A DNA stretch of 20,849 nucleotides from a virus (Duplodnaviria > Heunggongvirae > Uroviricota > Caudoviricetes): positions 1 through 20,849 of the IMG/VR virus record IMGVR_UViG_2778261244_000002, one strand, 5' to 3'. Below the pieces are notes generated by a model. That model worked only from the letters and a program-made list of their open reading frames with translations. It did no database searches and was not told where the DNA came from. Below are positions 4,282 through 17,685 of the stretch, piece after piece. The first letter of the stretch is position 1; each line of letters starts with the position of its first letter. The translations under genes were made by a program, and so were the position numbers.

Positions 4282-5135
4282 GCACCATCCTGAAATGGGC
4301 GGGTAATAAAACTGCCATTATGTCCGAACTGAAAAAACATCTTCCTGCTGGCCCGCGACTGGTTGAACCTTTCGCGGGTTCCTGTGCTGTGATGATGGAG
4401 ACGGATTACCCCAGCTATCTTGTTGCGGATATTAATCCTGATTTAATCAACCTCTATAAAAAGGTTGCTGCTGATTGCGAGGCGTTTATATCTCGTGCCA
4501 GAGCTTTATTTGAGGAAGCAAACAGGGAGGTGGCTTATTACAACATAAGGCAGGAGTTTAATTACTCCACTGAAATTACTGATTTCATGAAAGCGGTATA
4601 TTTCCTGTATCTCAATCGTCATGGTTACCGTGGGTTATGTCGTTATAACAAGAGCGGGCATTTCAACATTCCATACGGTAATTATAAAAATCCGTATTTC
4701 CCTGAAAAAGAAATTCGCGCATTTGCAGAGAAAGCCCAGCGAGCAACGTTTATCTGCGCCAGCTTTGATGAAACGCTGGCGATGCTGCAGGTGGGGGATG
4801 TGGTGTATTGCGATCCGCCTTATGACGGTACGTTTTCCGGCTATCACACTGACGGCTTCACTGAAGATGACCAGTATCACCTGGCATCTGTTCTTGAATA
4901 TCGATCATCAGAAGGTCATCCAGTCATTGTTTCTAACAGTGACACATCCCTGATCCGTTCGCTGTATCGAAATTTCACTCACCACTACATCAAGGCAAAA
5001 CGCAGCATCGGCGTGTCGGCTGGCGAGAGTAAATCTGCAACAGAAATCATTGCTGTTTCCGGGGCGCGCTGCTGGGTGGGATTTGATCCTTCGTGTGGCG
5101 TAGATAGTTCTGCTGTGTACGAGGTGCGTGTATGA
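4278..5135 (+). CDS. dam: DNA adenine (N6) methyltransferase, Dam family
   Basis: N-terminal ILKWAGNK...EPFAGSCAV (AdoMet-binding motif) and catalytic DPPY ([12 protein letters not shown]); ATG at 4278 overlaps the upstream stop and its own stop overlaps the A start (ATGA). Confidence 0.85.
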
Positions 5136-7546
5136 GTCATGACGATATGAGCAACTCTAGCGGCTTTAACGAGGCCGCTGCAGCATTTTCATGGAACGGC
5201 CCGAAAAAGGCCATTAACCCTTATCTGGACCCGGCGGAAGTTGCTCCGGAGTCTGCACTTTTAAACCTGATCACTCTGTACGCTGCCGATAATGAGCAGG
5301 AACAGCTGCGCCGCGATGCACTGAGTGAGCAGGTCTGGGAGCGTTATTTCTTTAATGAATCTCGTGATCCTGTCCAGCGCGAAATGGAGCAGGATAAGCT
5401 CATTAGCCGGGCAAAGCTAGCGCATGAACAGCAGCGTTTTAACCCGGACATGGTCATTCTGGCGGACGTCAGCGCCCAGCCCACCCATATTAGCAAGCCG
5501 CTGATGCAACGTATCGAATACTTCAGCAGCCTGGGCAGGCCAAAGGCTTATTCCCGCTATTTGCGTGAGACGATTAAGCCATGTCTGGAGCGACTGGATT
5601 GTGTACGTGACAGTCAGCTGTCTGCTTCTTTCCGTTTTATGGCAAGCCATCAAGGGCTGGAGGGCCTGCTGATTCTGCCTGAAATGAGTCAGGATCAGGT
5701 GAAACGCCTGTCCACCCTGGTAGCTGCGCATATGAGCATGTGCCTTGATGCAGCTTGTGGCGATTTGTATGCCACCGATGACGTTAAGCCAGAAGAAATC
5801 CGCAAGACATGGGAAAAGGTGGCGGCGGAAACCCTGCGTCTGGATGTCATCCCACCTGCGTTTGAGCAACTCCGTCGGAAAAGAAACCGCCGTAAACCCG
5901 TGCCCTATGAACTCATTCCGGGTTCGCTGGCGCGTATGTTGTGCGCCGACTGGTGGTATCGGAAATTATGGAAGATGCGTTGCGAATGGCGGGAAGAGCA
6001 GTTGCGTGCTGTCTGCCTGGTCAGCAAAAAAGCATCTCCCTATGTCAGCTATGAAGCCGTGATGCATAAACGTGAGCAGCGCCGTAAGTCGCTGGAGTTT
6101 TTCCGTTCTCATGAACTGGTGAACGAAGACGGCGACACGCTGGACATGGAGGATGTGGTAAACGCCAGCAGCAGCAACCCTGCGCATCGCCGCAATGAGA
6201 TGATGGCCTGTGTTAAAGGTCTGGAGCTTATCGCGGAAATGCGCGGTGACTGCGCCGTTTTCTACACTATCACCTGTCCGTCACGTTTCCATTCCACGCT
6301 CAACAACGGCAGACCCAACCCGACCTGGACAAATGCGACGGTAAGACAAAGCAGCGATTATATGGTCGGCATGTTTGCTGCATTTCGTAAGGCAATGCAC
6401 AAAACCGGGTTGCGCTGGTATGGCGTGCGGGTGGCTGAGCCGCACCATGACGGTACTGTGCACTGGCATCTCATGTGCTTCATGCGTAAAAAAGACCGCC
6501 GCGCCATCACTGCATTACTGCGTAAGTTTGCCATCCGTGTAGACCGCGAGGAGCTGGGCAACAACACGGGGCCACGCTTTAAGTCTGAGCTGATTAACCC
6601 GCGCAAAGGAACACCGACAAGCTACATCGCGAAATACATCAGTAAGAACATTGACGGGCGTGGTCTGGCTGGCGAGATCAGCAAGGAAACGGGTAAATCC
6701 CTGCGTGATAACGCCGAATACGTTAATGCCTGGGCGTCTCTGCATCGTGTTCAGCAGTTCCGCTTCTTTGGTATTCCGGGACGTCAGGCTTACCGTGAAC
6801 TTCGCTTGCTGGCTGGTCAGGCGGCAAGGCAACAGGGTGACAAAAAAGCAGGTGCGCCGATACTGGATGACCCGCGCCTTGATGCCATCCTGGCTGCTGC
6901 TGATGCTGGTTGTTTTGCCACCTACATCATGAAGCAGGGCGGCGTACTGGTTCCCCGTAAATATCACCTTATCAGAACCGCTTATGAAATCAACGAAGAG
7001 CCGACCGCCTATGGCGATCACGGCATTCGTATTTATGGCATCTGGTCACCCATTGCAGAGGGCAAGATCTGCACTCATGCAGTGAAGTGGAAAATGGTTC
7101 GTAAGGCCGTTGACGTTCAGGAGGCGGTAGCCGACCAGGGCGCTTGCGCCCCTTGGACTCGTGGCAATAACTGTCCCCTTGCTGAAAATTTGAACCAACA
7201 AGGGAAAGACAAATCAGCTGATGGGGACTCCAGAACGGATATTACCCGTATGAATGACAAGGAGTTGCATGATTACCTGCACAGTATGAGCAAAAAAGAG
7301 CGCCGGGAACTGGCTGCAAGGTTACGCCAGGTGAAACCGAAACGGCGTAAAGACTACAAACAGCGAATTACAGACCATCAGCGACAGCAGCTCGTCTATG
7401 AACTGAAGTCCAGGGGATTTGATGGCAGCGAGAAAGAAGTCGATTTGCTCCTTCGCGGCGGCAGTATTCCGTCAGGAGCAGGCCTGCGTATCTTCTATCG
7501 GAACCAGCGTCTGAAGGAAGATGATAAGTGGCGGAACCTATATTAA
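5132..7546 (+). CDS. A: Rolling-circle replication initiation endonuclease (P2 gpA-like)
   Basis: 804-aa protein with an HUH-type motif ([13 protein letters not shown]) and a tyrosine-containing YIAKYISK segment; lies between the early genes and the accessory region as in P2/186. Confidence 0.9.
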
Positions 7547-7613
7547 TTACGCGGGTTAACAATTCGTGCTCTTAATAATACCAGGCATATCAGGCCGATG
7601 AACGTAAAAAAAC

Positions 7614-7660
7614 GTTTTACATCAGTAAGATTATTATATACTGTAAATATAAACAGTGGT
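7614..7660 (+). promoter_or_regulatory. SOS promoter with LexA box (CTGT-N8-ACAG at 7641-7656)
   Basis: TTTACA (-35-like) then TATACT overlapping CTGTAAATATAAACAG, a perfect CTGT-N8-ACAG LexA box about 45 nt upstream of the 7699 ATG. Confidence 0.7.
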
Positions 7661-7698
7661 TATGTGTACAGTATTGTTTTGGTGTCATAGGAGGAAAG

Positions 7699-7887
7699 AT
7701 GCAGGACTATTTTTTGGAGTCTTTGAAGCTCCAGCGCATTGATTTTTTTCTTAAGCTTGTAGCGGCTAGTGAGTGTAGTGATGAAGAGAAGGGGCTGGCT
7801 CTGCAGTGGGTTTCTGAATTGACTGATGAACTCATGGCAAAAATCAGAAGCCACGAATACAACCGCTCAATGGATGTCATCAGCTGA
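7699..7887 (+). CDS. Tum-like (antirepressor N-terminal part?) small protein, LexA-regulated
   Basis: Strong AGGAGG RBS; immediately downstream of the LexA box and 10 nt upstream of the DinI-like gene. Functional call is positional analogy to the 186 tum operon. Confidence 0.55.
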   Translation: MQDYFLESLKLQRIDFFLKLVAASECSDEEKGLALQWVSELTDELMAKIRSHEYNRSMDVIS

Positions 7888-7897
7888 GGTGACTTTT

Positions 7898-8131
7898 ATG
7901 CGCATTGAAATAATGATCGATAAAGAGCAGAAGATTAGCCAGTCTACCCTGGACGCCCTTGAATCCGAGCTTTACCGCAATCTGCGCCCCCTGTATCCCA
8001 AAACGGTAATTCGCATTCGCAAAGGTAGCTCTAACGGTGTGGAACTAACCGGACTGCAACTGGATGAAGAAAGAAAACAAGTGATGAAAATTATGCAGAA
8101 GGTGTGGGAGGACGACAGCTGGCTGCATTAA
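7898..8131 (+). CDS. dinI: DinI-family protein
   Basis: MRIEIMIDKEQKISQSTLDALESELYRNL...MKIMQKVWEDDSW aligns by eye with E. coli DinI (MRIEVTIAK...ALAGELSRR...ILQETWESADDW); GAGGTG RBS. Confidence 0.8.
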   Translation: MRIEIMIDKEQKISQSTLDALESELYRNLRPLYPKTVIRIRKGSSNGVELTGLQLDEERKQVMKIMQKVWEDDSWLH

Positions 8132-8137
8132 GATGTT

Positions 8138-8175
8138 GCCCCCAGGAGGATTCATTCTGATGGGGGCTAGTTTGG
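8138..8175 (+). terminator. Putative hairpin terminator after the dinI-like gene
   Basis: Inverted repeat GCCCCCA...TGGGGGC followed by TAGTTTG; weak T-tract. Confidence 0.35.
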
Positions 8176-8321
8176 GCAATGAGTGAAATAAGGCGTAAGG
8201 TGGGCGGTTATTTTGATAAGTGATCGTCCGCTTTGTGTCAGAAGCAGAAGTGGGAGTGTCTGAGACTCTCTAAAAGTTGATGATTCACTTACAAAACCAT
8301 TTTCCTGATGGATGCTTACAC

Positions 8322-8657
8322 TTACGAATGATCATTCTGTTTAGTCTTCATGAGAAAATCCCGAATCTTTGCCAAGTTTGAATTTTCGGGGATTGAATCC
8401 ATGTACGGATCACGCTCAAACACTAATTGCTCAGATTCAACGAAAGCCTGCCACTCTACTGGGTCTAGCTCAAATCCCATTGCTGTCATATCACTTTCAT
8501 CTTCCCCCTCGATCCAGTGGACTAAATAAAACAATTCATCATCAGGAGAATCATCCTCACCATCAACAATATCAACATCGGTTACAGTGATACGTAGGGT
8601 GGGATCGATTTTTGAGACATAAATTCCTAACTGTGGTATAGGGGGAATATTGTTCAT
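8322..8657 (-). CDS. Highly acidic hypothetical protein (111 aa)
   Basis: AAAGGAG RBS before the ATG at 8657; strongly acidic composition (GEDDSPDDE, EGEDESD); no recognised domain; oriented toward the dinI-like gene. Confidence 0.6.
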   Translation of the reverse strand: MNNIPPIPQLGIYVSKIDPTLRITVTDVDIVDGEDDSPDDELFYLVHWIEGEDESDMTAMGFELDPVEWQAFVESEQLVFERDPYMDSIPENSNLAKIRDFLMKTKQNDHS

Positions 8658-9036
8658 GGAAACTCCTTTTATTGGTGTTTGCTATTTGAATAAAAATACG
8701 CCAAACAGAGTGTTAACTGTGAATATGGAAAGAATCGTTGTAAGTACCCCGCTTAGGTGTCCCATTCTATTTTAGAGGTTCTCGTGCATATGGATTATGT
8801 TATCTGAAAGTTAACTTCCGCTTCCCGTTCACAGCGAACATTCATCTTTGTAAACCCGTATGATCCGTTTTTCAAGTGGCCATTCAGATACGGATTTTTA
8901 CTTCTTTGACAGTGCATGACTATGCTGCATGAAATCGCATGATCGATTGAGGATCGTCTTTGCTCAGATCTGCCAGAACTGGCGGGCTTTTGCTCATGTC
9001 ATGCATGTGCATGAAAACCACTGCATAAAGCGGGCA

Positions 9037-9060
9037 GGCGTGGCGGGGATACGAGCGCGC
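9037..9060 (+). other. cos-like GC-rich motif (tentative)
   Basis: GGCGTGGCGGGGATACGAGCGCGC resembles the start of the P2/186 cohesive end as remembered (GGCG[A/T]GGCGGGGAAAGCA...), within an otherwise AT-rich intergenic region; the match is partial. Confidence 0.25.
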
Positions 9061-9136
9061 GGATGAGTAATCTATACCATCATCTTGATAAAAGTATTAA
9101 AAATGGTAAATTTAGCAAGCTACATATTAAAGGAAA

Positions 9137-10534
9137 ATGAAGATGTATGAAGTAATTGATATATCAGCGCAGGAAATTAAGGCGTTGTTAAACACTGCTG
9201 AAGATCATTTCAATGATTTTAAAAGTAAGCAAATAGCGCCTAATAAATTACAAGAAACTTTTGTAGCATTTGCAAATGCTGATGGCGGTAATATTTATAT
9301 TGGCATAGAGGATGCAGCTTCGGGGAGAGAGCGTATATCTGGTTTCAATGAGCCAGAGGAAGCGAATGCTATTATTTCGACCTTATTGGAAAATACTAAT
9401 CCAGCTGTTGAGAATGTTGAGGTGGAATATTTAAGAACACCTTCCAATGGATTGATTTTACATGTGGATATACCAAAAAGCCCCAAAGTTCATTACACGG
9501 CCTCTGGCGATTGCTTTATAAGAGCTAACGCGCAAAAATTAAAAATAAAAGGTGAGCGAATTACTCAGCTTTCCTATTCTAAAGGCGCAGAACCTTATGA
9601 AAAAAAAGCAGTGGATATAGTTGAAGTAGAAGATATTCTTGAAAGTGAATATTATTCTGATTATTTACGTAGAATAGGAACGACTCAGTCACCGAGAGTT
9701 TTTTTAAAAAAACAACGACTGTTAACTAAGAAAGATGGTGAATTTGTCCCGAATGTAGGCTGTGTTTTACTATTTGATGAAGAGCCTCAAGGATGTTTAG
9801 ATACTCGATGTGCTGTAAAAGTATATCGGCTTAGAACAACTGAAGCAGAGTACAAACGTGAACAATTACAGGAAGATCCTGTAACGATTGAGGGGCCACT
9901 TGAAGTGGTTATTTTAAATACAATAGCAAAAGTAAAAGAATATGTTGATGGAGCATCATTCAAAGACGGCGAAAATCTAGTAAAACTTAGCTATCCTGCA
10001 GAAGCATTGAAGGAAATATTAGTTAATGCTGTTATTCATAGAGATTACAGCCAAAAGGATGATGTGCACGTAAAAGTTTATGACAACCGGATTGAAGTTC
10101 AAAGTCCAGGCAGATTGCCTGGATACATGACTATTAATAATTTATATGAAGAGCGGTTTTCTCGTAATCCAAATTTAGTGCGTTTGTTGCATAAACTTCC
10201 CAATCCAGTGAACCATGATATTGGTGAGGGGCTTGATACTGCAAAAAATGAATTGCGTAAGGCCGGGTTGGTAGCCCCGGTATTTGAAGAAAGGGGCAAT
10301 AATTTTGTTGTAATAGTTAAGCATCAAACAATAGCCTCAATTGAGGATGTGATTATTAATTATTTTAAAGAAAATCCAACGGGACAGCTCACAAATAAGT
10401 TGGTTAGACAATTAAGTGGCGAAGATGACCTTCAAAAGGTTAAAAAGGCATTGCAAAAGTTAAGGGAGGAGGGCGTAATAAAACCATTAGATCCTAACGC
10501 GAATCCTTTCAAATTTAAATATATTAAAGCTTAA
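9137..10534 (+). CDS. Schlafen-like AlbA_2 domain + HATPase_c_4-like domain + C-terminal wHTH protein (COG2865-type); candidate anti-phage cargo
   Basis: N-terminal EDHFNDFKS...ETFVAFANADGGNIYIGIED matches the AlbA_2/Schlafen-like signature; central LKEILVNAVIHRDYSQKDDVHVKVYDNRIEVQSPGRLPG matches HATPase_c_4; C-terminus looks like a winged HTH. AT-rich relative to flanks; followed by a hairpin terminator. The start may be the second ATG at 9143, which has better RBS spacing. Confidence 0.75.
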   Translation: MKMYEVIDISAQEIKALLNTAEDHFNDFKSKQIAPNKLQETFVAFANADGGNIYIGIEDAASGRERISGFNEPEEANAIISTLLENTNPAVENVEVEYLRTPSNGLILHVDIPKSPKVHYTASGDCFIRANAQKLKIKGERITQLSYSKGAEPYEKKAVDIVEVEDILESEYYSDYLRRIGTTQSPRVFLKKQRLLTKKDGEFVPNVGCVLLFDEEPQGCLDTRCAVKVYRLRTTEAEYKREQLQEDPVTIEGPLEVVILNTIAKVKEYVDGASFKDGENLVKLSYPAEALKEILVNAVIHRDYSQKDDVHVKVYDNRIEVQSPGRLPGYMTINNLYEERFSRNPNLVRLLHKLPNPVNHDIGEGLDTAKNELRKAGLVAPVFEERGNNFVVIVKHQTIASIEDVIINYFKENPTGQLTNKLVRQLSGEDDLQKVKKALQKLREEGVIKPLDPNANPFKFKYIKA

Positions 10535-10537
10535 GTT

Positions 10538-10566
10538 AAAGGTGGAGGTTGTCTCCACCTTTTTTC
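10538..10566 (+). terminator. Rho-independent terminator
   Basis: AAAGGTGGAG-GTTGT-CTCCACC followed by TTTTTTC, immediately after the 465-aa gene stop. Confidence 0.75.
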
Positions 10567-10585
10567 ATAGGTAATGATTTTTAAA

Positions 10586-11614
10586 TTATAGTTTATAGTG
10601 TTCGAAAGTTATTGCTTCTTCATTGATCCAATAGTTGAGATCTTGTAACTTCTTCTGAAGTGGCATCAGTTCATTCCGAACAAATACCCGGCTGGCCTTC
10701 TCCACATCCCCAAACCCTCCAACATTATTAGGCATAATCCCCATCATTTGCGGCGGCACGCGGTGCGCAGCCATCATGTCGTCGCGGCTGACATTTTTGA
10801 TATTCAGAAATTCATCCTTCGCCGCGACTTCTGATAACGGGATGATTTGAAGCCCGTCCTTTTTGCCGTTAGGCGAGTACATAAACAGATTGCGGAAGTT
10901 GCCTGGACCTTTGGCGCTTTTCATTGCGTTGCGGAGGTTGTTCACATCCTCCTGGTTCTGCGCGGCATCGGTCATGTACATGATGAAGCCTGCATGGCTG
11001 CCGTTGATGTAATACTTACGGCGGAACAGCGTGGCGGACTCGTTGAGCAGGGCTGACGGAATGGCAGAAAGATAGCCGGGCAGGCCGTAGATCTCCTGGT
11101 TAATGTCCGGTTCCATCAGATGAAAAATGCTGCCTTTCGTGAACTGATACGGCTGGGTTGTCATACCGTATTGCACAAACCAGTAGGTATCCAGGTCTAA
11201 CCCGCGTCGGGTGTATTTTGCCAGAGCAGGCTCAAGGGCGATAACTTCACCGAAGCGGTTCGTGCGTTTCTCCAGGTAGGCGTTACCAAATACCAGATAG
11301 TCCTGCACAAAACGTGAAAAAGCCTGCTGGCTGAGCAGCGGATGGGGGATGTAGGTACTGGTCAGAATGTTGCATTTCACCGCAATTGGTGAACTGTGAT
11401 GCACGGCGGCGCGGAAGGTGCGTGCCAGTCCGTCAAAGCTTACTGGCGGCTCATACCAGCGATCTGTCTGTACGCATTCCACATAGTCCAGTAGTTCGCG
11501 GCGGTCCAGAACAGGAACGGGATCACCGAAGCTGAATGCTTCGGCTGTAGTTTGACTTTTATGCTGGATCTGGTTCGTCGACGCAGCGCGGTTCTTCTTA
11601 CTCTTTCCCATCAA
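10586..11614 (-). CDS. Q: Portal (capsid) protein, P2 gpQ-like
   Basis: 342-aa protein of gpQ-like length, translationally coupled to the upstream P remnant (its start overlaps the P stop), in the P-Q leftward arrangement of P2. Confidence 0.85.
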   Translation of the reverse strand: MMGKSKKNRAASTNQIQHKSQTTAEAFSFGDPVPVLDRRELLDYVECVQTDRWYEPPVSFDGLARTFRAAVHHSSPIAVKCNILTSTYIPHPLLSQQAFSRFVQDYLVFGNAYLEKRTNRFGEVIALEPALAKYTRRGLDLDTYWFVQYGMTTQPYQFTKGSIFHLMEPDINQEIYGLPGYLSAIPSALLNESATLFRRKYYINGSHAGFIMYMTDAAQNQEDVNNLRNAMKSAKGPGNFRNLFMYSPNGKKDGLQIIPLSEVAAKDEFLNIKNVSRDDMMAAHRVPPQMMGIMPNNVGGFGDVEKASRVFVRNELMPLQKKLQDLNYWINEEAITFEHYKL

Positions 11615-12285
11615 AAAATCTCCACAATATTACTGGTATTGGCGGACTCGCCCTGCAGTGGTTCGTTAAACAGTGCGTGCATTGTTGCCCAGGCCAGATC
11701 GGCGTGGCTGGCTTCTTCGCTGCGGCTGGCTTCATAGGTCGGGCGGTTGCCGCTGGCGGTGGTGGCGCGACGGATTGCCATGAATGACTGCGCAATGTCG
11801 GTGTGCCCGGCGTCAAACTCCAGACGGCGGTGGCTGATAATGTCGTAGGCCTTGAGCACCAGGGCGTTTTTAACGTTGGGGTTGTAGACAAACTCCCGGA
11901 CGGCAGGAAAGAATGCTTTCACGTTCTCGTAAACCCCGTGACCAACGCCGGTTGAGTCGATACCGATATAAGTCACGTTGTACTGTTCGGTCAGTTTTTT
12001 GATGGCGTCAGCCTGAGCGCGGAAGTCCATCCCGCGCCACTGGTGACGCTCAAGAATGCGGAATTTACCGCCCGGTACGGCTGGCGGTGCCACCACCACG
12101 CATCCGGCACTGTCGCCGTTCTGAGTACCTTTTGCGGGGTCATAACCGATCCATACTTCGCGCCAGCCAAACGGGCGCAGGGCCAGTGCATGGAAGTCGG
12201 TCCAGATTTCCCAGCTGTCCACCATGCACGCCTGCAGTTCGCTGAGCGGGAACACGGACGCGAGATCGTCCACGAACTCGCACAT
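11611..12285 (-). pseudogene. P: Terminase large subunit (gpP-like), C-terminal nuclease-domain fragment only
   Basis: Only about 224-263 aa of an expected ~590-aa terminase remain (open frame reaches at most 12402); the sequence contains the RNaseH-like nuclease region (GYDPAKG...GIDSTGVGHGV) and lacks the N-terminal ATPase. Confidence 0.7.
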
Positions 12286-12545
12286 CAGCAGGTTCTGGTA
12301 TCCAGCGTGACGATACCGGGGAAGTGCAGGCCGTGGAGCTTGTCGTGCGTGGACGTCACAAAGAAGTGGATTCCGGCGAGTGGAAGACGGGCGAAAGCAA
12401 CACTACCAAAGTGACCAGTACCAACAGCTACGCGAAGCTGACCATCAATGGTGAGGTGCTCTATGAAGTGGACCTTATCAACATGGTGGAAATTGTGGAC
12501 GGTGTGGACCTGATGGAAGCGCACCGCAACGCCCTCGGCCTCTGA
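12246..12545 (+). pseudogene. Probable tail-tube (FII-like) C-terminal fragment
   Basis: Open frame without a credible start, ending 55 nt upstream of gene E; called on position (FII precedes E in P2) and tail-protein-like sequence (KLTINGEVLYEVDLINMVEIVDGVDL). Confidence 0.3.
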
Positions 12546-12599
12546 TGTATCTGAACGGCGCGGGATACCGCGCCAGAACCCAATTGACAGGACAGCAAA

Positions 12600-12902
12600 A
12601 TGAGCGATAAGCAGACTGAAAAGACTATTCAACTGGATACCCCCATCAAGCGCGGTAAAACAGAAATCACCGAAATTGTGCTGCGTAAACCGCAGTCCGG
12701 TGCGCTGCGCGGTACACGCCTGCAGGCCATTATGGATATGGATGTAAACGCGATGATGACCGTGATCCCCCGCATCTCCAGTCCGGCACTGACCGCACAG
12801 GAAATTGCAGAGATGGACCCGGCAGATCTCACTGCCATGTCGGTTGAGGTTGTCACTTTTTTGTTGAAGAAGTCGGTGCTTGCCGGTTTACCGACAGCCT
12901 GA
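12600..12902 (+). CDS. E: Tail assembly chaperone gpE
   Basis: 100-aa ORF directly upstream of the tape measure gene with the slippery heptamer TTTTTTG at 12857-12863 near its end. Confidence 0.8.
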   Translation: MSDKQTEKTIQLDTPIKRGKTEITEIVLRKPQSGALRGTRLQAIMDMDVNAMMTVIPRISSPALTAQEIAEMDPADLTAMSVEVVTFLLKKSVLAGLPTA

Positions 12903-13036
12903 CGGTTGACGATCTGGTGGCAGATATCGCCACCATTTTTCACTGGCCGCCATCCGTTACTGACGTTATGCCGCTGACCGAAGTGCTGGAATGGCGGTAT
13001 AAAGCGATTCAGAGAAGCGGGGCCAACGATGAGTGA
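12600..13036 (+). CDS. E': gpE+E' -1 frameshift fusion product
   Basis: After a -1 slip at T_TTT_TTG (12857-12863) the -1 frame stays open to a TGA at 13034-13036, adding about 58 aa (...VEEVGACRFTDSLTVDDLVADIATIFHWPPSVTDVMPLTEVLEWRYKAIQRSGANDE) and overlapping the T start. Confidence 0.65.
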
Positions 13037-16000
13037 TAATAACCTGCGCCTTCAGGTCATTCTTAATGCGGTTGACAAGCTCACCCGCCCATTTCGATCC
13101 GCGCAGGCCAGTTCAAGAGAACTGGCTGCTGCTGTCAAAAAATCCCGCGATGCAATAAAGCAGCTTGATCAGGCCGGGAGCAGTCTGGACAGCTTCCGAA
13201 AGCTGCAGGCAGAAAATCAGAAATTAGGCGACAGGCTGAACTATGCCCGCCAGCGTGCAAATTTGCTCAGTCAGGAACTGGGAGCGATGGGGCCGCCTTC
13301 GCAACGTCAGGTTGTTGCTCTGGGCCGTCAACGGCTGGCTGTTCAGCGCCTGGAAGAACGCCAGAAAAAGCTGCAGCAGCAGACGGCGCTTGTGCGTGCT
13401 GAACTGTACCGGGCGGGAATTTCTGCGAAAGATGATGCGGGAGCAACTGCCCGTTTAGCCCGTGAAACATCACGTTATAACCAGGAATTGTCGAAACAGG
13501 AGGCGCGGCTGAAGCGACTGGGTGAAGCTCAGCGCAGGATGAATGCGGCGCGTGCCAGTTATGCCCGTTCGCTGGAGGTGCGCGATCGTATTGCAGGAGC
13601 CGGAGCCACTACCACGGCTGCAGGGCTGGCAATGGGGACGCCAGTGATGGCGGCAGTAAAAAGCTATACCAGCATGGAAGATGCCATGAAAGGTGTGGCA
13701 AAGCAGGTCAATGGTCTGCGTGACGATAATGGAAACCGTACTGCACGTTTTTATGAAATGCAGGATGCCATCAAGGCTGCCAGCGAACAGTTGCCGATGG
13801 AAAACGGTGCGGTGGACTTCGCTGCACTGGTTGAAGGTGGTGCGCGCATGAACGTCGCAGACCCTGACGACAGCTGGGAAGACCAGAAACGTGACCTGCT
13901 GGCCTTCGCCAGTACGGCAGCAAAGGCGGCAACAGCCTTTGAGCTGCCAGCGGATGAACTGTCAGAAAGTCTGGGGAAAATCGCCCAGCTCTACAAAATA
14001 CCTACCCGCAATATTGAACAGCTCGGCGATGCGCTGAACTATCTGGATGATAACGCCATGTCGAAAGGGGCGGACATCATTGATGTGATGCAACGTCTGG
14101 GCGGTGTGGCTGACCGTCTGGATTATCGTAAAGCGGCGGCACTGGGTTCCACCTTTCTGACACTGGGCGCTGCGCCGGAGGTTGCAGCCAGTGCAGCAAA
14201 CGCGATGGTGCGTGAATTGTCCATTGCCACCATGCAAAGCAAGAGTTTCTTTGCAGGGATGAATCTGCTGAAGCTCAATCCTGAAGTGATTGAAAAGCAG
14301 ATGACGAAGGATGCGATGGGAACTATCCAGCGTGTGCTGGAGAAGGTGAACGCACTGCCGCAGGACAAGCGTCTGTCTGCCATGACCATGTTGTTTGGTA
14401 AAGAGTTTGGCGATGACGCGGCGAAACTGGCAAACAACCTGCCGGAACTACAGCGCCAGCTAAAACTGACAGCGGGCAATGATGCGCTCGGTTCCATGCA
14501 GAAAGAATCCGACATCAACAAGGACTCACTTTCTGCTCAGTGGTTGCTGGTTAAAACCGGAGCGCAGAATACCTTCAGCAGCCTGGGCGAAACGCTGCGC
14601 CAGCCGCTGATGGATATTCTGTACACGGTGAAAAGCGTTACGGGAGCGTTGCGTCGCTGGGTGGAAGCTAACCCGGAACTCACGGGCACACTGATGAAAG
14701 TAGCCGCTATTGTGGCTGCGGTTACCGTAGGCCTCGGCACCTTGGCTGTGGCGCTGGCTGCAGTGCTGGGGGCGCTGGCAGTCATCCGTCTGGGATTCTC
14801 TGTGCTGGGCATCAAAACGTTACCTTCCGTTACGGCAGCAGTAACACGAACTAGCAGCGCGTTGTCCTGGCTGGCTGGCGCTCCACTGGCAGTGCTGCGA
14901 CGCGGGCTTGCTTCATCGGGTAACGCAGCGGGTTTACTTACTGCGCCGTTGTCGTCTTTGCGCCGTACGGCATCACTGACGGGAAATGTCCTGAAAACTG
15001 TAGCAGGTGCGCCGGTTGCACTATTGCGGTCTGGATTATCCGCTTTACGTGCTGTTGCTGTGATGTTTATGAATCCTCTGGCGGTACTGCGCGGTGGACT
15101 GGCTGCCGCAGGCGCGGTGCTTCGTGTGCTTGCATCTGGTCCGCTGGCGATGCTGCGCGTTGCCCTGTATGCCATATCTGGTCTGTTAGGTGCTCTGCTC
15201 AGTCCGATAGGTCTTGTGGTTACTGCACTGGCGGGCGTGGCGCTGGTTGTCTGGAAATACTGGCAACCCATCACCGCATTTCTCGGTGGCGTGGTGGAAG
15301 GATTCAAAGCGGCGGCAGGTCCCATCAGTGCTGCATTCGAACCACTTAAGCCTGTGTTTCAGTGGATTGGCGACAAAGTACAGGCGCTGTGGGGCTGGTT
15401 TACTGATCTGCTGACGCCCGTTAAGTCGACCTCTGCCGAACTGCAGAGTGCAGCGGCAATGGGGCGGCGATTCGGGGAGGCACTGGCGGAAGGGCTGAAT
15501 ATGGTCATGCATCCGCTGGACTCCCTGAAATCCGGCGTTTCCTGGTTGCTGGAGAAGCTCGGTATTGTCAGTAAAGAGGCCGCAAAGGCAAAACTGCCGG
15601 AAAGCGTGACGCGTCAGCAACCTGCGACGGTGAATGCAGACGGTAAAGTGATGATGCCATCGGGTGGTTTTCCATCATGGGGATATGGCTTTGCGGGGAT
15701 GTATGACAGCGGCGGGTATATCCCGCGCGGGCAGTTTGGCATCGTCGGTGAAAACGGGCCGGAAATTGTTAACGGCCCGGCAAATGTGACCAGCCGGAGA
15801 AATACAGCTGCACTGGCTGCCGTTGTTGCCGGAATGATGGGCGTTGCTGCCGCGCCAGCAGAGCTTCCACCGTTGCACCCTTTGGCACTTCCCGCGAAAG
15901 GTGGAGAAGCAATTGTGAGTCGCGCAGCCACTGTGCCACTCGTTCAACGGATTGAGGCACCGACGCAGATCATCATTCAGACGCAGCCAGGACAAAGTGC

Positions 16001-16106
16001 GCAGGATATTGCGCGGGAGGTGGCACGCCAGCTTGATGAACGTGAACGCAGGCTGAAGGCAAAAGCCAGGAGTAACTACAGCGATCAGGGGGGATACGAC
16101 GCATGA
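13029..16106 (+). CDS. T: Tail tape measure protein, gpT-like
   Basis: 1025-aa protein with an N-terminal coiled-coil-like region, central hydrophobic segments, repeated (A/L)LR(R/S/G)GL-type stretches and a Gly-rich C-terminal part; position after E/E'. Confidence 0.85.
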   Translation: MSDNNLRLQVILNAVDKLTRPFRSAQASSRELAAAVKKSRDAIKQLDQAGSSLDSFRKLQAENQKLGDRLNYARQRANLLSQELGAMGPPSQRQVVALGRQRLAVQRLEERQKKLQQQTALVRAELYRAGISAKDDAGATARLARETSRYNQELSKQEARLKRLGEAQRRMNAARASYARSLEVRDRIAGAGATTTAAGLAMGTPVMAAVKSYTSMEDAMKGVAKQVNGLRDDNGNRTARFYEMQDAIKAASEQLPMENGAVDFAALVEGGARMNVADPDDSWEDQKRDLLAFASTAAKAATAFELPADELSESLGKIAQLYKIPTRNIEQLGDALNYLDDNAMSKGADIIDVMQRLGGVADRLDYRKAAALGSTFLTLGAAPEVAASAANAMVRELSIATMQSKSFFAGMNLLKLNPEVIEKQMTKDAMGTIQRVLEKVNALPQDKRLSAMTMLFGKEFGDDAAKLANNLPELQRQLKLTAGNDALGSMQKESDINKDSLSAQWLLVKTGAQNTFSSLGETLRQPLMDILYTVKSVTGALRRWVEANPELTGTLMKVAAIVAAVTVGLGTLAVALAAVLGALAVIRLGFSVLGIKTLPSVTAAVTRTSSALSWLAGAPLAVLRRGLASSGNAAGLLTAPLSSLRRTASLTGNVLKTVAGAPVALLRSGLSALRAVAVMFMNPLAVLRGGLAAAGAVLRVLASGPLAMLRVALYAISGLLGALLSPIGLVVTALAGVALVVWKYWQPITAFLGGVVEGFKAAAGPISAAFEPLKPVFQWIGDKVQALWGWFTDLLTPVKSTSAELQSAAAMGRRFGEALAEGLNMVMHPLDSLKSGVSWLLEKLGIVSKEAAKAKLPESVTRQQPATVNADGKVMMPSGGFPSWGYGFAGMYDSGGYIPRGQFGIVGENGPEIVNGPANVTSRRNTAALAAVVAGMMGVAAAPAELPPLHPLALPAKGGEAIVSRAATVPLVQRIEAPTQIIIQTQPGQSAQDIAREVARQLDERERRLKAKARSNYSDQGGYDA

Positions 16107-16588
16107 TGATGGTGCTGGGATTGTACGTGTTTATGCTGCGCACCGTTCCGTATCAGGAACTGCAGTATCAACGCAGCTGGCGACATGCGGCAAACAGTCG
16201 GGTAAACCGACGTCCGTCCACGCAGTTTCTGGGACCGGAAAACGACATGCTGACGCTTTCCGGTGTTCTTATGCCGGAGATAACAGGCGGCAGGCTGTCG
16301 TTGCTGGCACTGGAGCAGATGGCAGAACAGGGGAAAGCATGGCCCCTGATTGAAGGCAGCGGCACGATTTACGGCATGTATGTGATTGAGGGACTGAATC
16401 AGACTAAAACGGAGTTTTTCCGCGACGGTATGCCGCGCCGCATTGAGTTCACCCTGTCGCTCAAACGAGTGGATGAATCCCTGTCCGATATGTTCGGTGA
16501 TCTCAGTGCGCAACTGAATAATCTGCAGGACACGGCAACGTCTGCCTTAAGCGATATCAGTAAAACGGTGGGAGGGCTGCTGTCGTGA
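16103..16588 (+). CDS. U: Tail protein gpU-like
   Basis: 161-aa ORF translationally coupled to T (ATG overlaps the T stop) with a CAGGGGGGA RBS; size and position match P2 gpU. Confidence 0.8.
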   Translation: MMMVLGLYVFMLRTVPYQELQYQRSWRHAANSRVNRRPSTQFLGPENDMLTLSGVLMPEITGGRLSLLALEQMAEQGKAWPLIEGSGTIYGMYVIEGLNQTKTEFFRDGMPRRIEFTLSLKRVDESLSDMFGDLSAQLNNLQDTATSALSDISKTVGGLLS

Positions 16589-17685
16589 ATTTCAGCTCTG
16601 AACTGCTTAACAAAGGCAACAAAACTCCCGCATTCAGCATCAGTATTGAGGGCAGGGATATCACCACTGTGCTGGATAACCGCCTGATGAGTCTGACGCT
16701 GACGGATAACCGGGGCTTTGAAGCGGACCAGCTTGATCTGGAACTGGATGACGCTGACGGAAAAATCGTGCTGCCGCGCCGTGGTGCGGTCATTACGCTG
16801 GCGCTGGGCTGGAAGGGGCAGCCGCTTTTCCCGAAAGGGGCATTCACAGTGGACGAGATTGAACACACTGGCGCACCGGACCGCCTGACTATCCGGGCGC
16901 GAAGTGCTGATTTTCGGGAAACGCTGAATACCCGCCGTGAAAAATCGTGGCATAAGACCACCGTCGGGGAAGTGGTGAAGGAAATAGCCGCGCGGCACAA
17001 GCTGAAGATGGCACTGGGTAAAGACCTGTCGGATAAGCCCGTGGAGCATATAGACCAGACTAATGAGAGTGACGGCAGTTTTCTGATGCGGCTGGCGCGA
17101 CAGTACGGTGCCATCGCGTCGGTGAAAAATGGCAATCTGTTATTCATCCGGCAGGGGCAGGGCAAAAGCGCCACTGGTAAACCTCTGCCAGTGATCACTA
17201 TCACACGCAAGGACGGCGACAGTCACCGATTTACCCTGGCAGATCGCGGAGCCTACACGGGCGTAATTGCCAGCTGGTTGCATACCCGCGAACCTGCGAA
17301 GAAAGAAAGCACCACGGTGAAGCGTAAGCGCAGAACTAAGAAGCAGAAGAAAGAGCCAGAAGCGAAGCAGGGCGATTACCTGGTGGGTACGGATGAAAAC
17401 GTGCTGGTACTTAATCGCACTTATGCCAACCGGAGCAACGCCGAACGAGCGGCGAAAATGCAGTGGGAACGCCTGCAACGCGGCGTTGCGTCATTCTCGC
17501 TACAACTGGCAGAAGGGCGGGCAGATCTCTACACGGAAATGCCAGTGAAAGTCAGTGGCTTTAAACAGCCGATAGATGATGCGGAATGGACCATTACGAC
17601 TCTGACGCATGCCGTCAGCCCGGATAACGGTTTTACGACCAGTCTGGAGCTTGAAGTGAGGATTGATGATTTCGAAATGGAATGA
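16585..17685 (+). CDS. D: Tail protein gpD-like
   Basis: GTG start overlapping the U stop, GGGAGGG RBS; 366 aa; T-U-D-ogr order matches P2. Confidence 0.8.
   Translation: MNFSSELLNKGNKTPAFSISIEGRDITTVLDNRLMSLTLTDNRGFEADQLDLELDDADGKIVLPRRGAVITLALGWKGQPLFPKGAFTVDEIEHTGAPDRLTIRARSADFRETLNTRREKSWHKTTVGEVVKEIAARHKLKMALGKDLSDKPVEHIDQTNESDGSFLMRLARQYGAIASVKNGNLLFIRQGQGKSATGKPLPVITITRKDGDSHRFTLADRGAYTGVIASWLHTREPAKKESTTVKRKRRTKKQKKEPEAKQGDYLVGTDENVLVLNRTYANRSNAERAAKMQWERLQRGVASFSLQLAEGRADLYTEMPVKVSGFKQPIDDAEWTITTLTHAVSPDNGFTTSLELEVRIDDFEME

What the first reader, a model, noticed from the sequence alone, without database searches (positions are those of the whole stretch)
8322..8657. Strongly acidic 111-aa protein in the accessory region
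The protein is rich in Asp/Glu runs, has a good RBS and no recognisable domain. Small, very acidic phage proteins are often DNA mimics or anti-restriction/anti-defence factors (Ocr, ArdA-like logic). It could instead be a partner or immunity factor for the neighbouring Schlafen-like gene, although they are separated by about 480 bp and on opposite strands.
Basis: inference. Interest (0 to 1): 0.55.

Follow-up and report, generated by a model that had tools for sequence, protein, structure and literature searches.

The report
Orphaned acidic prophage gene (DUF8087)
The 111-residue acidic protein is a real, conserved gene of unknown function (family DUF8087) that normally sits between the repressor and integrase genes of P2-like prophages; here it is a stranded fragment of that operon, dropped beside the phage's DNA-packaging site, and it has no link to the neighbouring Schlafen-like gene.

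Summary
ORF 8322-8657(-) encodes 111 aa, pI 4.05, net charge -19, with AAGGAG 5 nt before the ATG. It is identical to E. coli WP_001059831.1 (Pfam DUF8087/PF26332; PHROG 17127), function unknown, and is also present in BL21(DE3).

- **No link to the Schlafen-like gene.** The phage cos site (9037-9055) lies between the two genes. Among 5,426 complete E. coli genomes, 131 carry this module and 8 carry the Schlafen-like gene; none carries both.
- **No resemblance to Ocr or ArdA.** The AlphaFold model is a small SH3-like beta-barrel with helices and has no significant structural match.

The new finding is the gene's origin. Its native home is the lysogeny operon of P2-like prophages: repressor, Flk_N tail-anchored protein, DUF8087, integrase. 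Distant relatives sit between AlpA-GpA and the integrase in small integrative elements. The window copy is an orphan cassette that keeps the last 27 codons of the Flk_N gene and the first 16 integrase codons. The cassette has spread to islands in at least seven genera and stays under purifying selection (dN/dS 0.1-0.25).

Most likely it is a free-standing acidic decoy that binds a basic DNA-binding protein. The target is unknown.

The parts
8322..8657 (-). DUF8087 coding sequence: 111 aa, pI 4.05, identical to WP_001059831.1.
   Evidence: ORF list and composition. 100% identical to the annotated CDS in L002/L003. PF26332 tag on all homologues. PHROG 17127 E = 2e-70. dN/dS 0.1-0.25. AlphaFold model pLDDT 78.8: five strands, helix 66-76, a short strand, C-terminal helix 94-108.
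8663..8668 (-). Shine-Dalgarno AAGGAG, 5 nt before the ATG.
   Evidence: Read from the sequence. Conserved as AAAGGA(A/G) in operon-type and cassette-type loci.
8682..8765 (-). Remnant of the 3' end of a Flk_N-family gene: 27 codons plus stop, MGHLSGVLTTILSIFTVNTLFGVFLFK*, the hydrophobic C-terminal tail anchor.
   Evidence: Aligns with the last codons, stop and spacer of intact Flk_N genes in L026/L023 (...AAGVLLGAVLFK* followed by the same 24-nt spacer and RBS). In-frame stops and unrelated sequence lie upstream.
8766..8840 (-). Rest of the conserved cassette leader. The shared upstream boundary of the cassette lies at about 8831-8840.
   Evidence: The window, Serratia, Symbiopectobacterium, Lonsdalea, Proteus, Morganella and Citrobacter copies all start to align at the same point, about 185 nt before the ATG. 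No RNA structure signal (z = -0.62), no Rfam hit, no consensus sigma-70 promoter on this strand.
8285..8335 (-). Remnant of the 5' end of an integrase gene: MIIRKCKHPSGKWFCK*. Its ATG overlaps the last codons of DUF8087.
   Evidence: Translation. Matches the N-termini of intact integrases that overlap DUF8087 in L019, L023 and L026 (V/MxVRKLPSGKWL...) and the longer stubs in L011-L014 and L017.
8911..9061 (.). Conserved cos region of the prophage. The 19-nt cohesive-end core is at 9037-9055 (GGCGTGGCGGGGATACGAG). It separates the DUF8087 cassette from the Schlafen-like gene.
   Evidence: The first 13 nt equal the annotated cos of phage 186 (NC_001317 positions 1-19), and the preceding sequence aligns with the 186 right end. 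The 150 bp recur in about 1,300 E. coli genomes and in Fels-2, SopEPhi and Klebsiella P2-like phages. Homology to other DUF8087-bearing prophages stops at 9061.
9137..10534 (+). Schlafen-like gene (SLFN_AlbA_2 + HATPase_c_4, 465 aa). This is independent cargo on the portal side of cos and is not part of the DUF8087 unit.
   Evidence: Pfam, PHROG and PADLOC hits. Present in 8 of 5,426 genomes, never with DUF8087.
7898..8131 (+). DinI-like gene, convergent with DUF8087. It marks the conserved gpA-side edge of the hotspot.
   Evidence: PF06183 E = 1e-22. RefSeq annotation of identical loci.

Best explanation
**Shown.** The gene is a bona fide member of the uncharacterised family DUF8087.
- Its native position is the lysogeny operon of P2-like prophages integrated next to pgsA/uvrC. 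The order there is C repressor (HTH_3), a tail-anchored Flk_N-family protein, DUF8087, then the integrase, whose start codon overlaps the end of DUF8087.
- More distant members sit in the equivalent place in small integrative elements. There they are divergent from an AlpA(HTH_17)-GpA replication operon and next to the integrase.
- The window copy is an orphan cassette cut out of such an operon. It still carries the last 27 codons of the Flk_N gene and the first 16 codons of the integrase gene.
- The cassette was implanted on the gpA side of cos in the P2 gpA-Q hotspot of a degraded 186-like prophage.
- The same cassette has spread to unrelated genomic islands in at least seven genera and stays under purifying selection without its old neighbours.

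**Inferred.** The product is a soluble, non-enzymatic small beta-barrel whose strong negative charge is a conserved property. It carries a conserved D56/E63/E68/W69 patch. I therefore propose it works alone as a stoichiometric binder or decoy for a basic, probably nucleic-acid-binding, protein.

The conserved synteny with the integration/regulation switch of GpA-type elements points to the likeliest targets: a switch or recombination protein of such elements (Cox/Apl/AlpA-type winged-helix protein, integrase or GpA), acting in trans. A host nucleoid protein or a defence protein is the fallback. It is not functionally tied to the Schlafen-like gene.
For: **Real gene.** Homologues; dN/dS 0.1-0.25, including among orphan copies; RBS.

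**Native operon.** L018-L021 Klebsiella, L023-L024 Enterobacter, L026-L028 E. coli and L015 Buttiauxella. Gaps between genes are 9-24 nt, and the DUF8087/int overlap is 4-14 nt.

**Distant members.** They lie between AlpA-GpA and the integrase in L006, L010, L036, L037 and L039. A Pantoea orphan lies at the same pgsA site.

**Cassette remnants.**

**Spread.** Serratia, Symbiopectobacterium, Lonsdalea and Proteus; E. coli island; Morganella and Citrobacter. 131 E. coli genomes carry the P2-hotspot form, including C41/BL21(DE3).

**Conserved acidity.**. The acidic loop 31-41 is variable or deletable while D56, E63 and W69 are near-invariant.

**Fold.** SH3-like barrel.

**Precedent.** An acidic (pI 4.1) SH3-like protein, CarS, sequesters the recognition helix of a MerR-type winged-helix repressor (PMC2926617).
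Against: - No experiment or literature exists for the family.
- No consensus promoter was found for the window copy, so expression here is unproven.
- The cassette flanks diverge at about the same rate as synonymous sites. Its wide spread could therefore partly reflect hitch-hiking.
- The synteny argument rests on about 15 loci, not a census.
- The island neighbours (helicase-nucleases, ArdB/KlcA) would fit an anti-defence or defence role equally well.
Confidence: 0.45

Rival explanations
1. Ocr/ArdA-style anti-restriction or anti-defence DNA mimic. The acidic protein imitates DNA and blocks restriction or other host defences for the phage or island that carries it.
For: Family-wide strong acidity. 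Small, non-enzymatic and carried on mobile elements. Orphan copies sit in islands beside large helicase-nuclease genes and an ArdB/KlcA 'Antirestrict' gene and in the P2 hotspot. SH3-like DNA mimicry has a precedent in CarS.
Against: No hit to Ocr, ArdA or ArdB models, or to any PADLOC or NCBIfam model. The predicted fold is unlike Ocr or ArdA, with no significant PDB or BFVD match. The native location is the repressor-integrase operon, expressed for lysogeny rather than at entry. It is absent from 50,697 phage genome records. A 2026 survey of 1,511 P2-like prophages found recognisable anti-defence genes in only 28 (PMC13586616), whereas this module is in roughly 10% of E. coli P2-like hotspots. 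It is therefore not a recognised anti-defence family.
Confidence: 0.17
2. Cognate regulator, inhibitor or antitoxin-like partner of the upstream Flk_N-family tail-anchored membrane protein. The two would form a repressor-operon exclusion module comparable to rexAB in the lambda cI operon. Orphan copies would survive as stand-alone 'antidotes' after the membrane partner was lost.
For: Flk_N and DUF8087 are adjacent (24-nt gap) in every intact P2-like operon seen. In the cassette the membrane gene is destroyed while the small acidic gene is kept under selection, a pattern typical of orphan immunity or antitoxin genes.
Against: The distant members in AlpA-GpA elements have no Flk_N neighbour. Phage 520873 has a Flk_N gene followed by a different small gene. 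Flk_N has no PADLOC hit and no known toxic activity.
Confidence: 0.15
3. Partner or immunity factor of the neighbouring 465-aa Schlafen-like gene.
For: Only proximity and divergent orientation in this window.
Against: cos lies between them, so they sit at opposite ends of the packaged genome. None of 5,426 complete E. coli genomes has both, against 131 with the module and 8 with the Schlafen-like gene. The Schlafen-like gene occurs with other small genes, and DUF8087 occurs with retrons or an OLD-like nuclease.
Confidence: 0.02
4. Functionless hitch-hiking remnant. The ORF survives only because the fragment is young and is carried along with hotspot and island DNA.
For: It is flanked by two pseudogene stubs. 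No promoter was detected. The E. coli hotspot copies are over 99% identical, so they are uninformative about selection.
Against: Across cassette copies from different genera the ORF is intact, with dN/dS 0.1-0.25 at dS up to 0.4, while the flanking stubs have accumulated stops. The RBS and spacer are conserved.
Confidence: 0.06

Closest known systems
Pfam DUF8087 (PF26332) / PHROG 17127; RefSeq WP_001059831.1
   Same: The window protein is identical to WP_001059831.1 and matches PHROG 17127 end to end. All homologues carry PF26332.
   Different: Nothing differs: it is a member. The family has no assigned function and no literature. Rousset et al. 2022 list it only as 'hypothetical' in P2 hotspot loci.
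CarS antirepressor of Myxococcus xanthus (PDB 2KSS)
   Same: About the same size and pI (CarS1 pI 4.1). It has a five-stranded SH3-like beta fold and acts by sequestering the DNA-recognition helix of a MerR-type winged-helix protein (PMC2926617). DUF8087 is encoded next to winged-helix switch proteins (AlpA/HTH_17, Cox-like) in its native contexts.
Ocr (T7 gp0.3) and ArdA anti-restriction DNA mimics
   Same: Small, very acidic and carried on mobile elements.
   Different: No homology. The predicted fold is a beta-barrel, not the Ocr or ArdA architecture. The gene is encoded in a lysogeny operon rather than in a first-entering or leading region.
P2 old/tin and other cargo of the P2 gpA-Q hotspot (Rousset et al. 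2022)
   Same: It occupies the same cos-proximal slot on the gpA side and is transcribed toward gpA. It is exchanged modularly between prophages.
   Different: It matches no defence model. It is a fragment of another phage's lysogeny operon rather than a self-contained system with its own recognisable promoter. No anti-phage test has been reported.
Accessory genes inside phage repressor operons (for example lambda rexA/rexB in the cI operon)
   Same: In the native P2-like operon, Flk_N and DUF8087 sit between the repressor and the integrase, and so are presumably made in lysogens. The lambda comparison rests on general knowledge.
   Different: No homology to RexA or RexB, and no phenotype is known.

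Membership tests
DUF8087 (PF26332) | Significant match to the family model. | tested here: met
   The local Pfam copy lacks the model (no hit). However, all 61 homologues, including the 98%-identical P0001, carry the precomputed PF26332 tag. RefSeq names the 100%-identical WP_001059831.1 'DUF8087 domain-containing protein'.
PHROG 17127 | Full-length HMM match. | tested here: met
   E = 2e-70, residues 1-111 against profile positions 1-111.
Ocr / ArdA / ArdB-KlcA anti-restriction proteins | Sequence homology to the family models. | tested here: not met
   No Pfam, NCBIfam or PADLOC family at E <= 1.
Ocr / ArdA / ArdB-KlcA anti-restriction proteins | Characteristic fold. | tested here: not met
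Ocr / ArdA / ArdB-KlcA anti-restriction proteins | Relief of restriction in vivo, or binding to restriction-modification enzymes. | not testable with these tools
   Needs an experiment.
CarS-like SH3-fold DNA-mimic antirepressors | Acidic SH3-like beta fold. | tested here: met
CarS-like SH3-fold DNA-mimic antirepressors | Homology to CarS. | tested here: not met
   A profile search of PDB sequences found nothing relevant. 2KSS is not among the listed structural matches.
CarS-like SH3-fold DNA-mimic antirepressors | Binds the DNA-recognition helix of a winged-helix regulator. | not testable with these tools
   Only synteny with AlpA/HTH_17 and Cox-like genes is available.
Two-gene system with the Schlafen-like gene | Conserved genomic linkage. 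| tested here: not met
   None of 5,426 genomes has both; 131 have the DUF8087 module and 8 have the Schlafen-like gene. cos lies between them.
P2 gpA-Q hotspot defence cargo | Located in the hotspot and exchanged modularly. | tested here: met
P2 gpA-Q hotspot defence cargo | Match to a known defence protein, or an anti-phage phenotype. | tested here: not met
   No PADLOC hit. The phenotype cannot be tested here.
P2-like lysogeny-operon accessory gene (C - Flk_N - DUF8087 - int) | Flanked by an intact Flk_N gene and an intact integrase in one operon. | tested here: not met
   The family's intact loci meet it. The window copy keeps only 27 codons of Flk_N and 16 of int.

The most novel reading that the evidence does not exclude
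DUF8087 would be a new class of SH3-like acidic 'protein immunity' factor for GpA-replicon mobile elements. It would hold the element quiescent, or direct integration, by sequestering the basic winged-helix switch/excision protein (Cox/Apl/AlpA) or the GpA initiator rather than by binding DNA. This would explain why minimal AlpA-GpA-integrase elements carry it in the place of a repressor. Orphan copies such as the one in this window and in BL21(DE3) would then give trans-acting cross-interference against incoming P2-like phages or P4-type satellites.
Probability: 0.12. Interest if true: 0.75.

Novelty: new variant of a known kind. Interest (0 to 1): 0.4.

Why it matters
The protein is conserved, selected and completely uncharacterised. 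It is present in about 4% of complete E. coli genomes, including the B-lineage strains BL21(DE3), C41 and NEBExpress.

Three things follow from placing it in the repressor-integrase operon of P2-like phages and beside AlpA-GpA switches of small defence-carrying elements:
- It turns a vague 'acidic protein' into a concrete short list of testable targets.
- It shows that the P2 hotspot collects fragments of other phages' lysogeny modules, not only self-contained defence systems.
- It shows that cos itself is a recombination boundary splitting the hotspot into two independently exchanged halves.

If the protein proves to be a decoy for a phage switch protein or a defence protein, it would add a new fold family to the small set of known protein mimics.

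Tried and rejected
**Sequence and structure searches that found nothing useful**
- Pfam, NCBIfam and PADLOC on the protein: nothing.
- tblastn against 50,697 phage records: no match.
- PDB sequence profile search: only chance hits to lamin.
- The AFDB50 library was not available.
- Literature searches for DUF8087, PF26332, PHROG 17127 and WP_001059831: none.

**Tests of the 479-bp spacer and cassette leader**
- Rfam on 7500-10700: no hit.
- RNA fold of the 188-nt leader: z = -0.62.
- Repeat search for cassette-bounding repeats: only chance-level matches.
- Promoter scan: no sigma-70 consensus on the gene's strand.

**Other dead ends**
The A1 scan of species-representative genomes returned only 5 loci.
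- Small ORFs upstream of DUF8087 in the AlpA-GpA elements have no domain and look spurious.

**Ideas considered and dropped**
- That the conserved 185-nt leader is a regulatory RNA. It is the decayed 3' end of the Flk_N gene.
- That the gene pairs with the Schlafen-like gene. Refuted by co-occurrence.
- That the acidic run at 31-41 is the functional core. It is variable and deleted in several members.

Full report
**1. The observation**

The minus-strand ORF 8322-8657 encodes 111 residues. It has 26 Asp+Glu and 7 Lys+Arg, a net charge of -19 and pI 4.05, which makes it the most acidic ORF of 90 aa or more in the window. AAGGAG lies 5 nt upstream of the ATG. The local Pfam, NCBIfam and PADLOC libraries give no hit. 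PHROG 17127 (unknown function) matches end to end at E = 2e-70.

A search of 5.8 billion proteins found 61 homologues in Enterobacterales, all tagged PF26332. The window protein is 100% identical to RefSeq WP_001059831.1, named 'DUF8087 domain-containing protein' in newer annotations.

**2. The setting**

The window is a degraded 186/P2-like prophage lying next to the host genes ybjL and ybjM. Its gene order is:
- integrase (1-1209, -) and CI repressor (1449-2105, -);
- early genes, Dam methylase and gpA (5132-7546);
- a 62-aa ORF and a DinI-like gene;
- the acidic gene;
- the Schlafen-like gene (SLFN_AlbA_2 + HATPase_c_4);
- portal Q (10586-11614, -);
- a truncated terminase, then the tape-measure protein, gpU and gpD.

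The gpA-Q interval is the published P2 defence hotspot next to cos (PMC9122126; PMC13586616).

**3. cos lies between the two genes**

Positions 9037-9055 read GGCGTGGCGGGGATACGAG. The first 13 nt equal the annotated cohesive end of phage 186, and the preceding 80 nt align with the 186 right end. The 150 bp at 8911-9061 recur at 85-92% identity in about 1,300 E. coli genomes and in Fels-2, SopEPhi and Klebsiella P2-like phages.

Homology between this window and other E. coli prophages carrying the acidic gene stops at 9061, just past cos. In the packaged linear genome the acidic gene is therefore the last gene at the right end. The Schlafen-like gene is at the left end, next to the portal gene. 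The hotspot consists of two halves that are exchanged independently.

**4. Test of linkage to the Schlafen-like gene**

The counts come from 5,426 complete E. coli genomes.

| Feature | Genomes |
|---|---|
| DUF8087 module plus cos at 99% identity or more | 131 |
| Schlafen-like gene | 8 |
| Both together | 0 |

- The Schlafen-like gene occurs with a different 141-aa gene or a DUF4145 gene.
- The DUF8087 module occurs beside retron Ec67, an OLD-like ATP-dependent nuclease and retron Ec86 in C41/BL21(DE3).
- Rousset et al. list WP_001059831 as 'hypothetical' with several different cargoes.

**5. Family and fold**

A profile search of 1.84 billion cluster representatives found 34 proteins. The distant ones are 68-127 aa and align only to residues 1-80.

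- P8, G11 and W69 are invariant.
- Y13, V25, V28, V46, D56, E63 and L78 are nearly invariant.
- The Asp/Glu run at 31-41 varies in length and is deleted in several members.

Net charge is -7 to -22 in almost all members, although mean column identity is only 29%. Acidity is thus a selected property, but the poly-acidic loop is not the conserved core.

**6. Native genomic context**

In P2-like prophages integrated next to pgsA/uvrC, the gene sits in a compact, co-oriented operon. The operon is divergent from the early (Cox-like ... Dam ... GpA) operon, and its order is:
- an HTH_3 repressor (127-203 aa);
- after a 9-nt gap, a Flk_N-family protein (PF27202, 210-215 aa, with a hydrophobic C-terminal tail; PHROG 5825);
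- after a 24-nt gap, DUF8087;
- the integrase, overlapping DUF8087 by 4-14 nt.

This arrangement was seen in Klebsiella aerogenes and relatives, Enterobacter kobei, E. coli and Buttiauxella. A Pantoea orphan lies at the same pgsA site.

The distant members tell the same story. Examples are in Nitrosospira and in metagenome contigs (L006, L010, L036, L037; L039 shows only DUF8087 beside the integrase). There DUF8087 is the gene divergent from an AlpA(HTH_17)-GpA operon and adjacent to the integrase, in small integrative elements. Two of these elements carry visible defence cargo: Gabija plus a BglII restriction-modification system in L010, and a TIR-STAND protein in L006. This subfamily carries a basic N-terminal tail, MGQAKLRGSKEERIAQSKARKQ.

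The recurrent association is therefore with the integration/regulation module of GpA-replicon elements, not with any particular cargo.

**7. The window copy is an orphan cassette**

The roughly 185 nt upstream of the ATG are conserved in the window and in copies from Serratia, Symbiopectobacterium, Lonsdalea, Proteus, Morganella and Citrobacter. All share the same upstream boundary. The last 81 nt of this leader encode MGHLSGVLTTILSIFTVNTLFGVFLFK*. They align with the C-terminal tail, stop codon, spacer and RBS of intact Flk_N genes; sequence further upstream carries in-frame stops.

Overlapping the 3' end of DUF8087 is MIIRKCKHPSGKWFCK*, the first codons of the integrase. Longer stubs with stops occur in the other cassette copies.

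So a fragment '(Flk_N 3' end) - DUF8087 - (int 5' end)' was excised from a lysogeny operon. It now lies, inverted, beside cos in a 186-like prophage, and also in unrelated islands:
- next to a 1,589-aa DEAD-box helicase in E. coli;
- next to a 1,169-aa helicase-PLD protein and near an ArdB/KlcA gene in Morganella;
- next to PHROG 26730 in Citrobacter and Proteus.

In complete E. coli genomes, 214 of 5,426 carry DUF8087 DNA and none carries the intact operon. No phage isolate genome in the 50,697-record collection has it.

**8. Selection**

Among cassette copies, dN/dS is 0.07-0.25 wherever dS exceeds 0.1. This is the same range as among operon-type copies. The leader meanwhile diverges at roughly the synonymous rate and the flanking stubs have accumulated stops. 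The ORF is therefore kept by selection without Flk_N or the integrase in cis, which means it functions autonomously or in trans.

**9. Expression caveat**

No sigma-70 consensus promoter was found on the minus strand between 8658 and 9136. The leader has no RNA-structure signal (z = -0.62), and Rfam finds nothing. Natively the gene would be transcribed from the repressor promoter; this is inferred from operon structure. How the orphan copy is transcribed is unknown.

**10. Mechanism**

Shown: a soluble, small, non-enzymatic barrel with a conserved negative charge and a conserved D56/E63/E68/W69 patch. It is native to the lysogeny side of GpA-type elements and is functional as an orphan.

Inferred: it is a stoichiometric decoy for a basic, probably DNA-binding, protein. 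The best precedent is CarS, an acidic (pI 4.1) SH3-like protein. CarS docks the recognition helix of a MerR-type winged-helix repressor into an acid-lined pocket (PMC2926617). AlpA/HTH_17 and Cox-like proteins are small, basic (pI about 9.4-9.7) winged-helix proteins encoded right beside DUF8087. That makes them, the integrase or GpA the first candidates. This is analogy, not homology.

Rivals, with my confidence in each:
- an anti-restriction or anti-defence mimic, favoured by the island neighbours but disfavoured by the native operon and the lack of any family or fold match: 0.17;
- an inhibitor or antidote for Flk_N: 0.15;
- a silent remnant: 0.06;
- a Schlafen partner: 0.02.

**11. Verdict**

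The finding is a genuine, selected member of an uncharacterised family. Its two specific proposals are unsupported (Ocr/ArdA-like) or refuted (Schlafen partner).

The value added here is fourfold: the gene's origin, the cassette anatomy, the position of cos, and a short list of testable targets. I score interest as moderate (0.4). In novelty terms it is a new variant of a known kind, the small acidic inhibitor proteins of mobile elements.

Noticed in passing
window 8911-9061 (core 9037-9055): The prophage cos site sits inside the gpA-Q hotspot. Homology with other prophages breaks exactly at 9061, so the hotspot is two independently swapped halves (gpA side and portal side). This fits the idea that cohesive ends seed recombination.
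   Followed up: yes
window 9137-10534 (+): The 465-aa SLFN_AlbA_2 + HATPase_c_4 gene is rare (8 of 5,426 complete E. coli genomes). It gives weak PADLOC hits to pAgo-associated modules and matches PHROG 12156 'DNA helicase'. It is a candidate single-gene defence cargo. The only sigma-70-like promoter in the spacer (9085-9112, +) points at it.
   Followed up: partly
window 10586-17685: The prophage is heavily deleted. After the portal gene only the C-terminal 224 aa of the terminase remain (11611-12285, -). Capsid genes and most tail genes are missing. The sequence then jumps to the tape-measure protein (13029-16106), gpU and gpD, followed by the host genes ybjL and ybjM.
   Followed up: partly
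window 8682-8765 (-): A 27-codon hydrophobic mini-ORF with its own ATG (MGHLSGVLTTILSIFTVNTLFGVFLFK) is left over from the Flk_N tail anchor. It is kept in most cassette copies but with non-conservative changes, and the ATG is lost in Morganella. It is probably a remnant rather than a small membrane peptide.
   Followed up: partly
L006 5470-10439; L010 448-10573; L036; L037: Small integrative elements in Nitrosospira and metagenomes are built as integrase / DUF8087 / AlpA(HTH_17)-GpA. L010 also carries Gabija plus a BglII restriction-modification system, and L006 a TIR-STAND protein. They have no recognisable repressor. Their DUF8087 proteins carry a basic N-terminal tail (MGQAKLRGSKEERIAQSKARKQ).
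   Followed up: partly
L014 10538-10921; L017 6417-6800; L032 6535-6918: A 127-aa protein of unknown function (PHROG 26730) repeatedly follows the orphan DUF8087 cassette in island contexts (Proteus, E. coli, Citrobacter). It is absent from the window.
   Followed up: no
L026 5344-5976 and homologues (L015, L018, L023): The Flk_N-family protein between the repressor and DUF8087 in P2-like prophages is tail-anchored and uncharacterised (PHROG 5825). Residues 34-106 show weak similarity to an anti-repressor Ant PHROG. In phage 520873 it is frameshifted and followed by a different small gene.
   Followed up: partly
window 7699-8131 (+): The DinI-like ORF can be read from 7826 (101 aa) or from the RefSeq start at 7898 (77 aa). 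This recalls the nested starts of Tum in phage 186. A conserved 62-aa ORF (7699-7887, WP_001154431-like) precedes and overlaps it.
   Followed up: no
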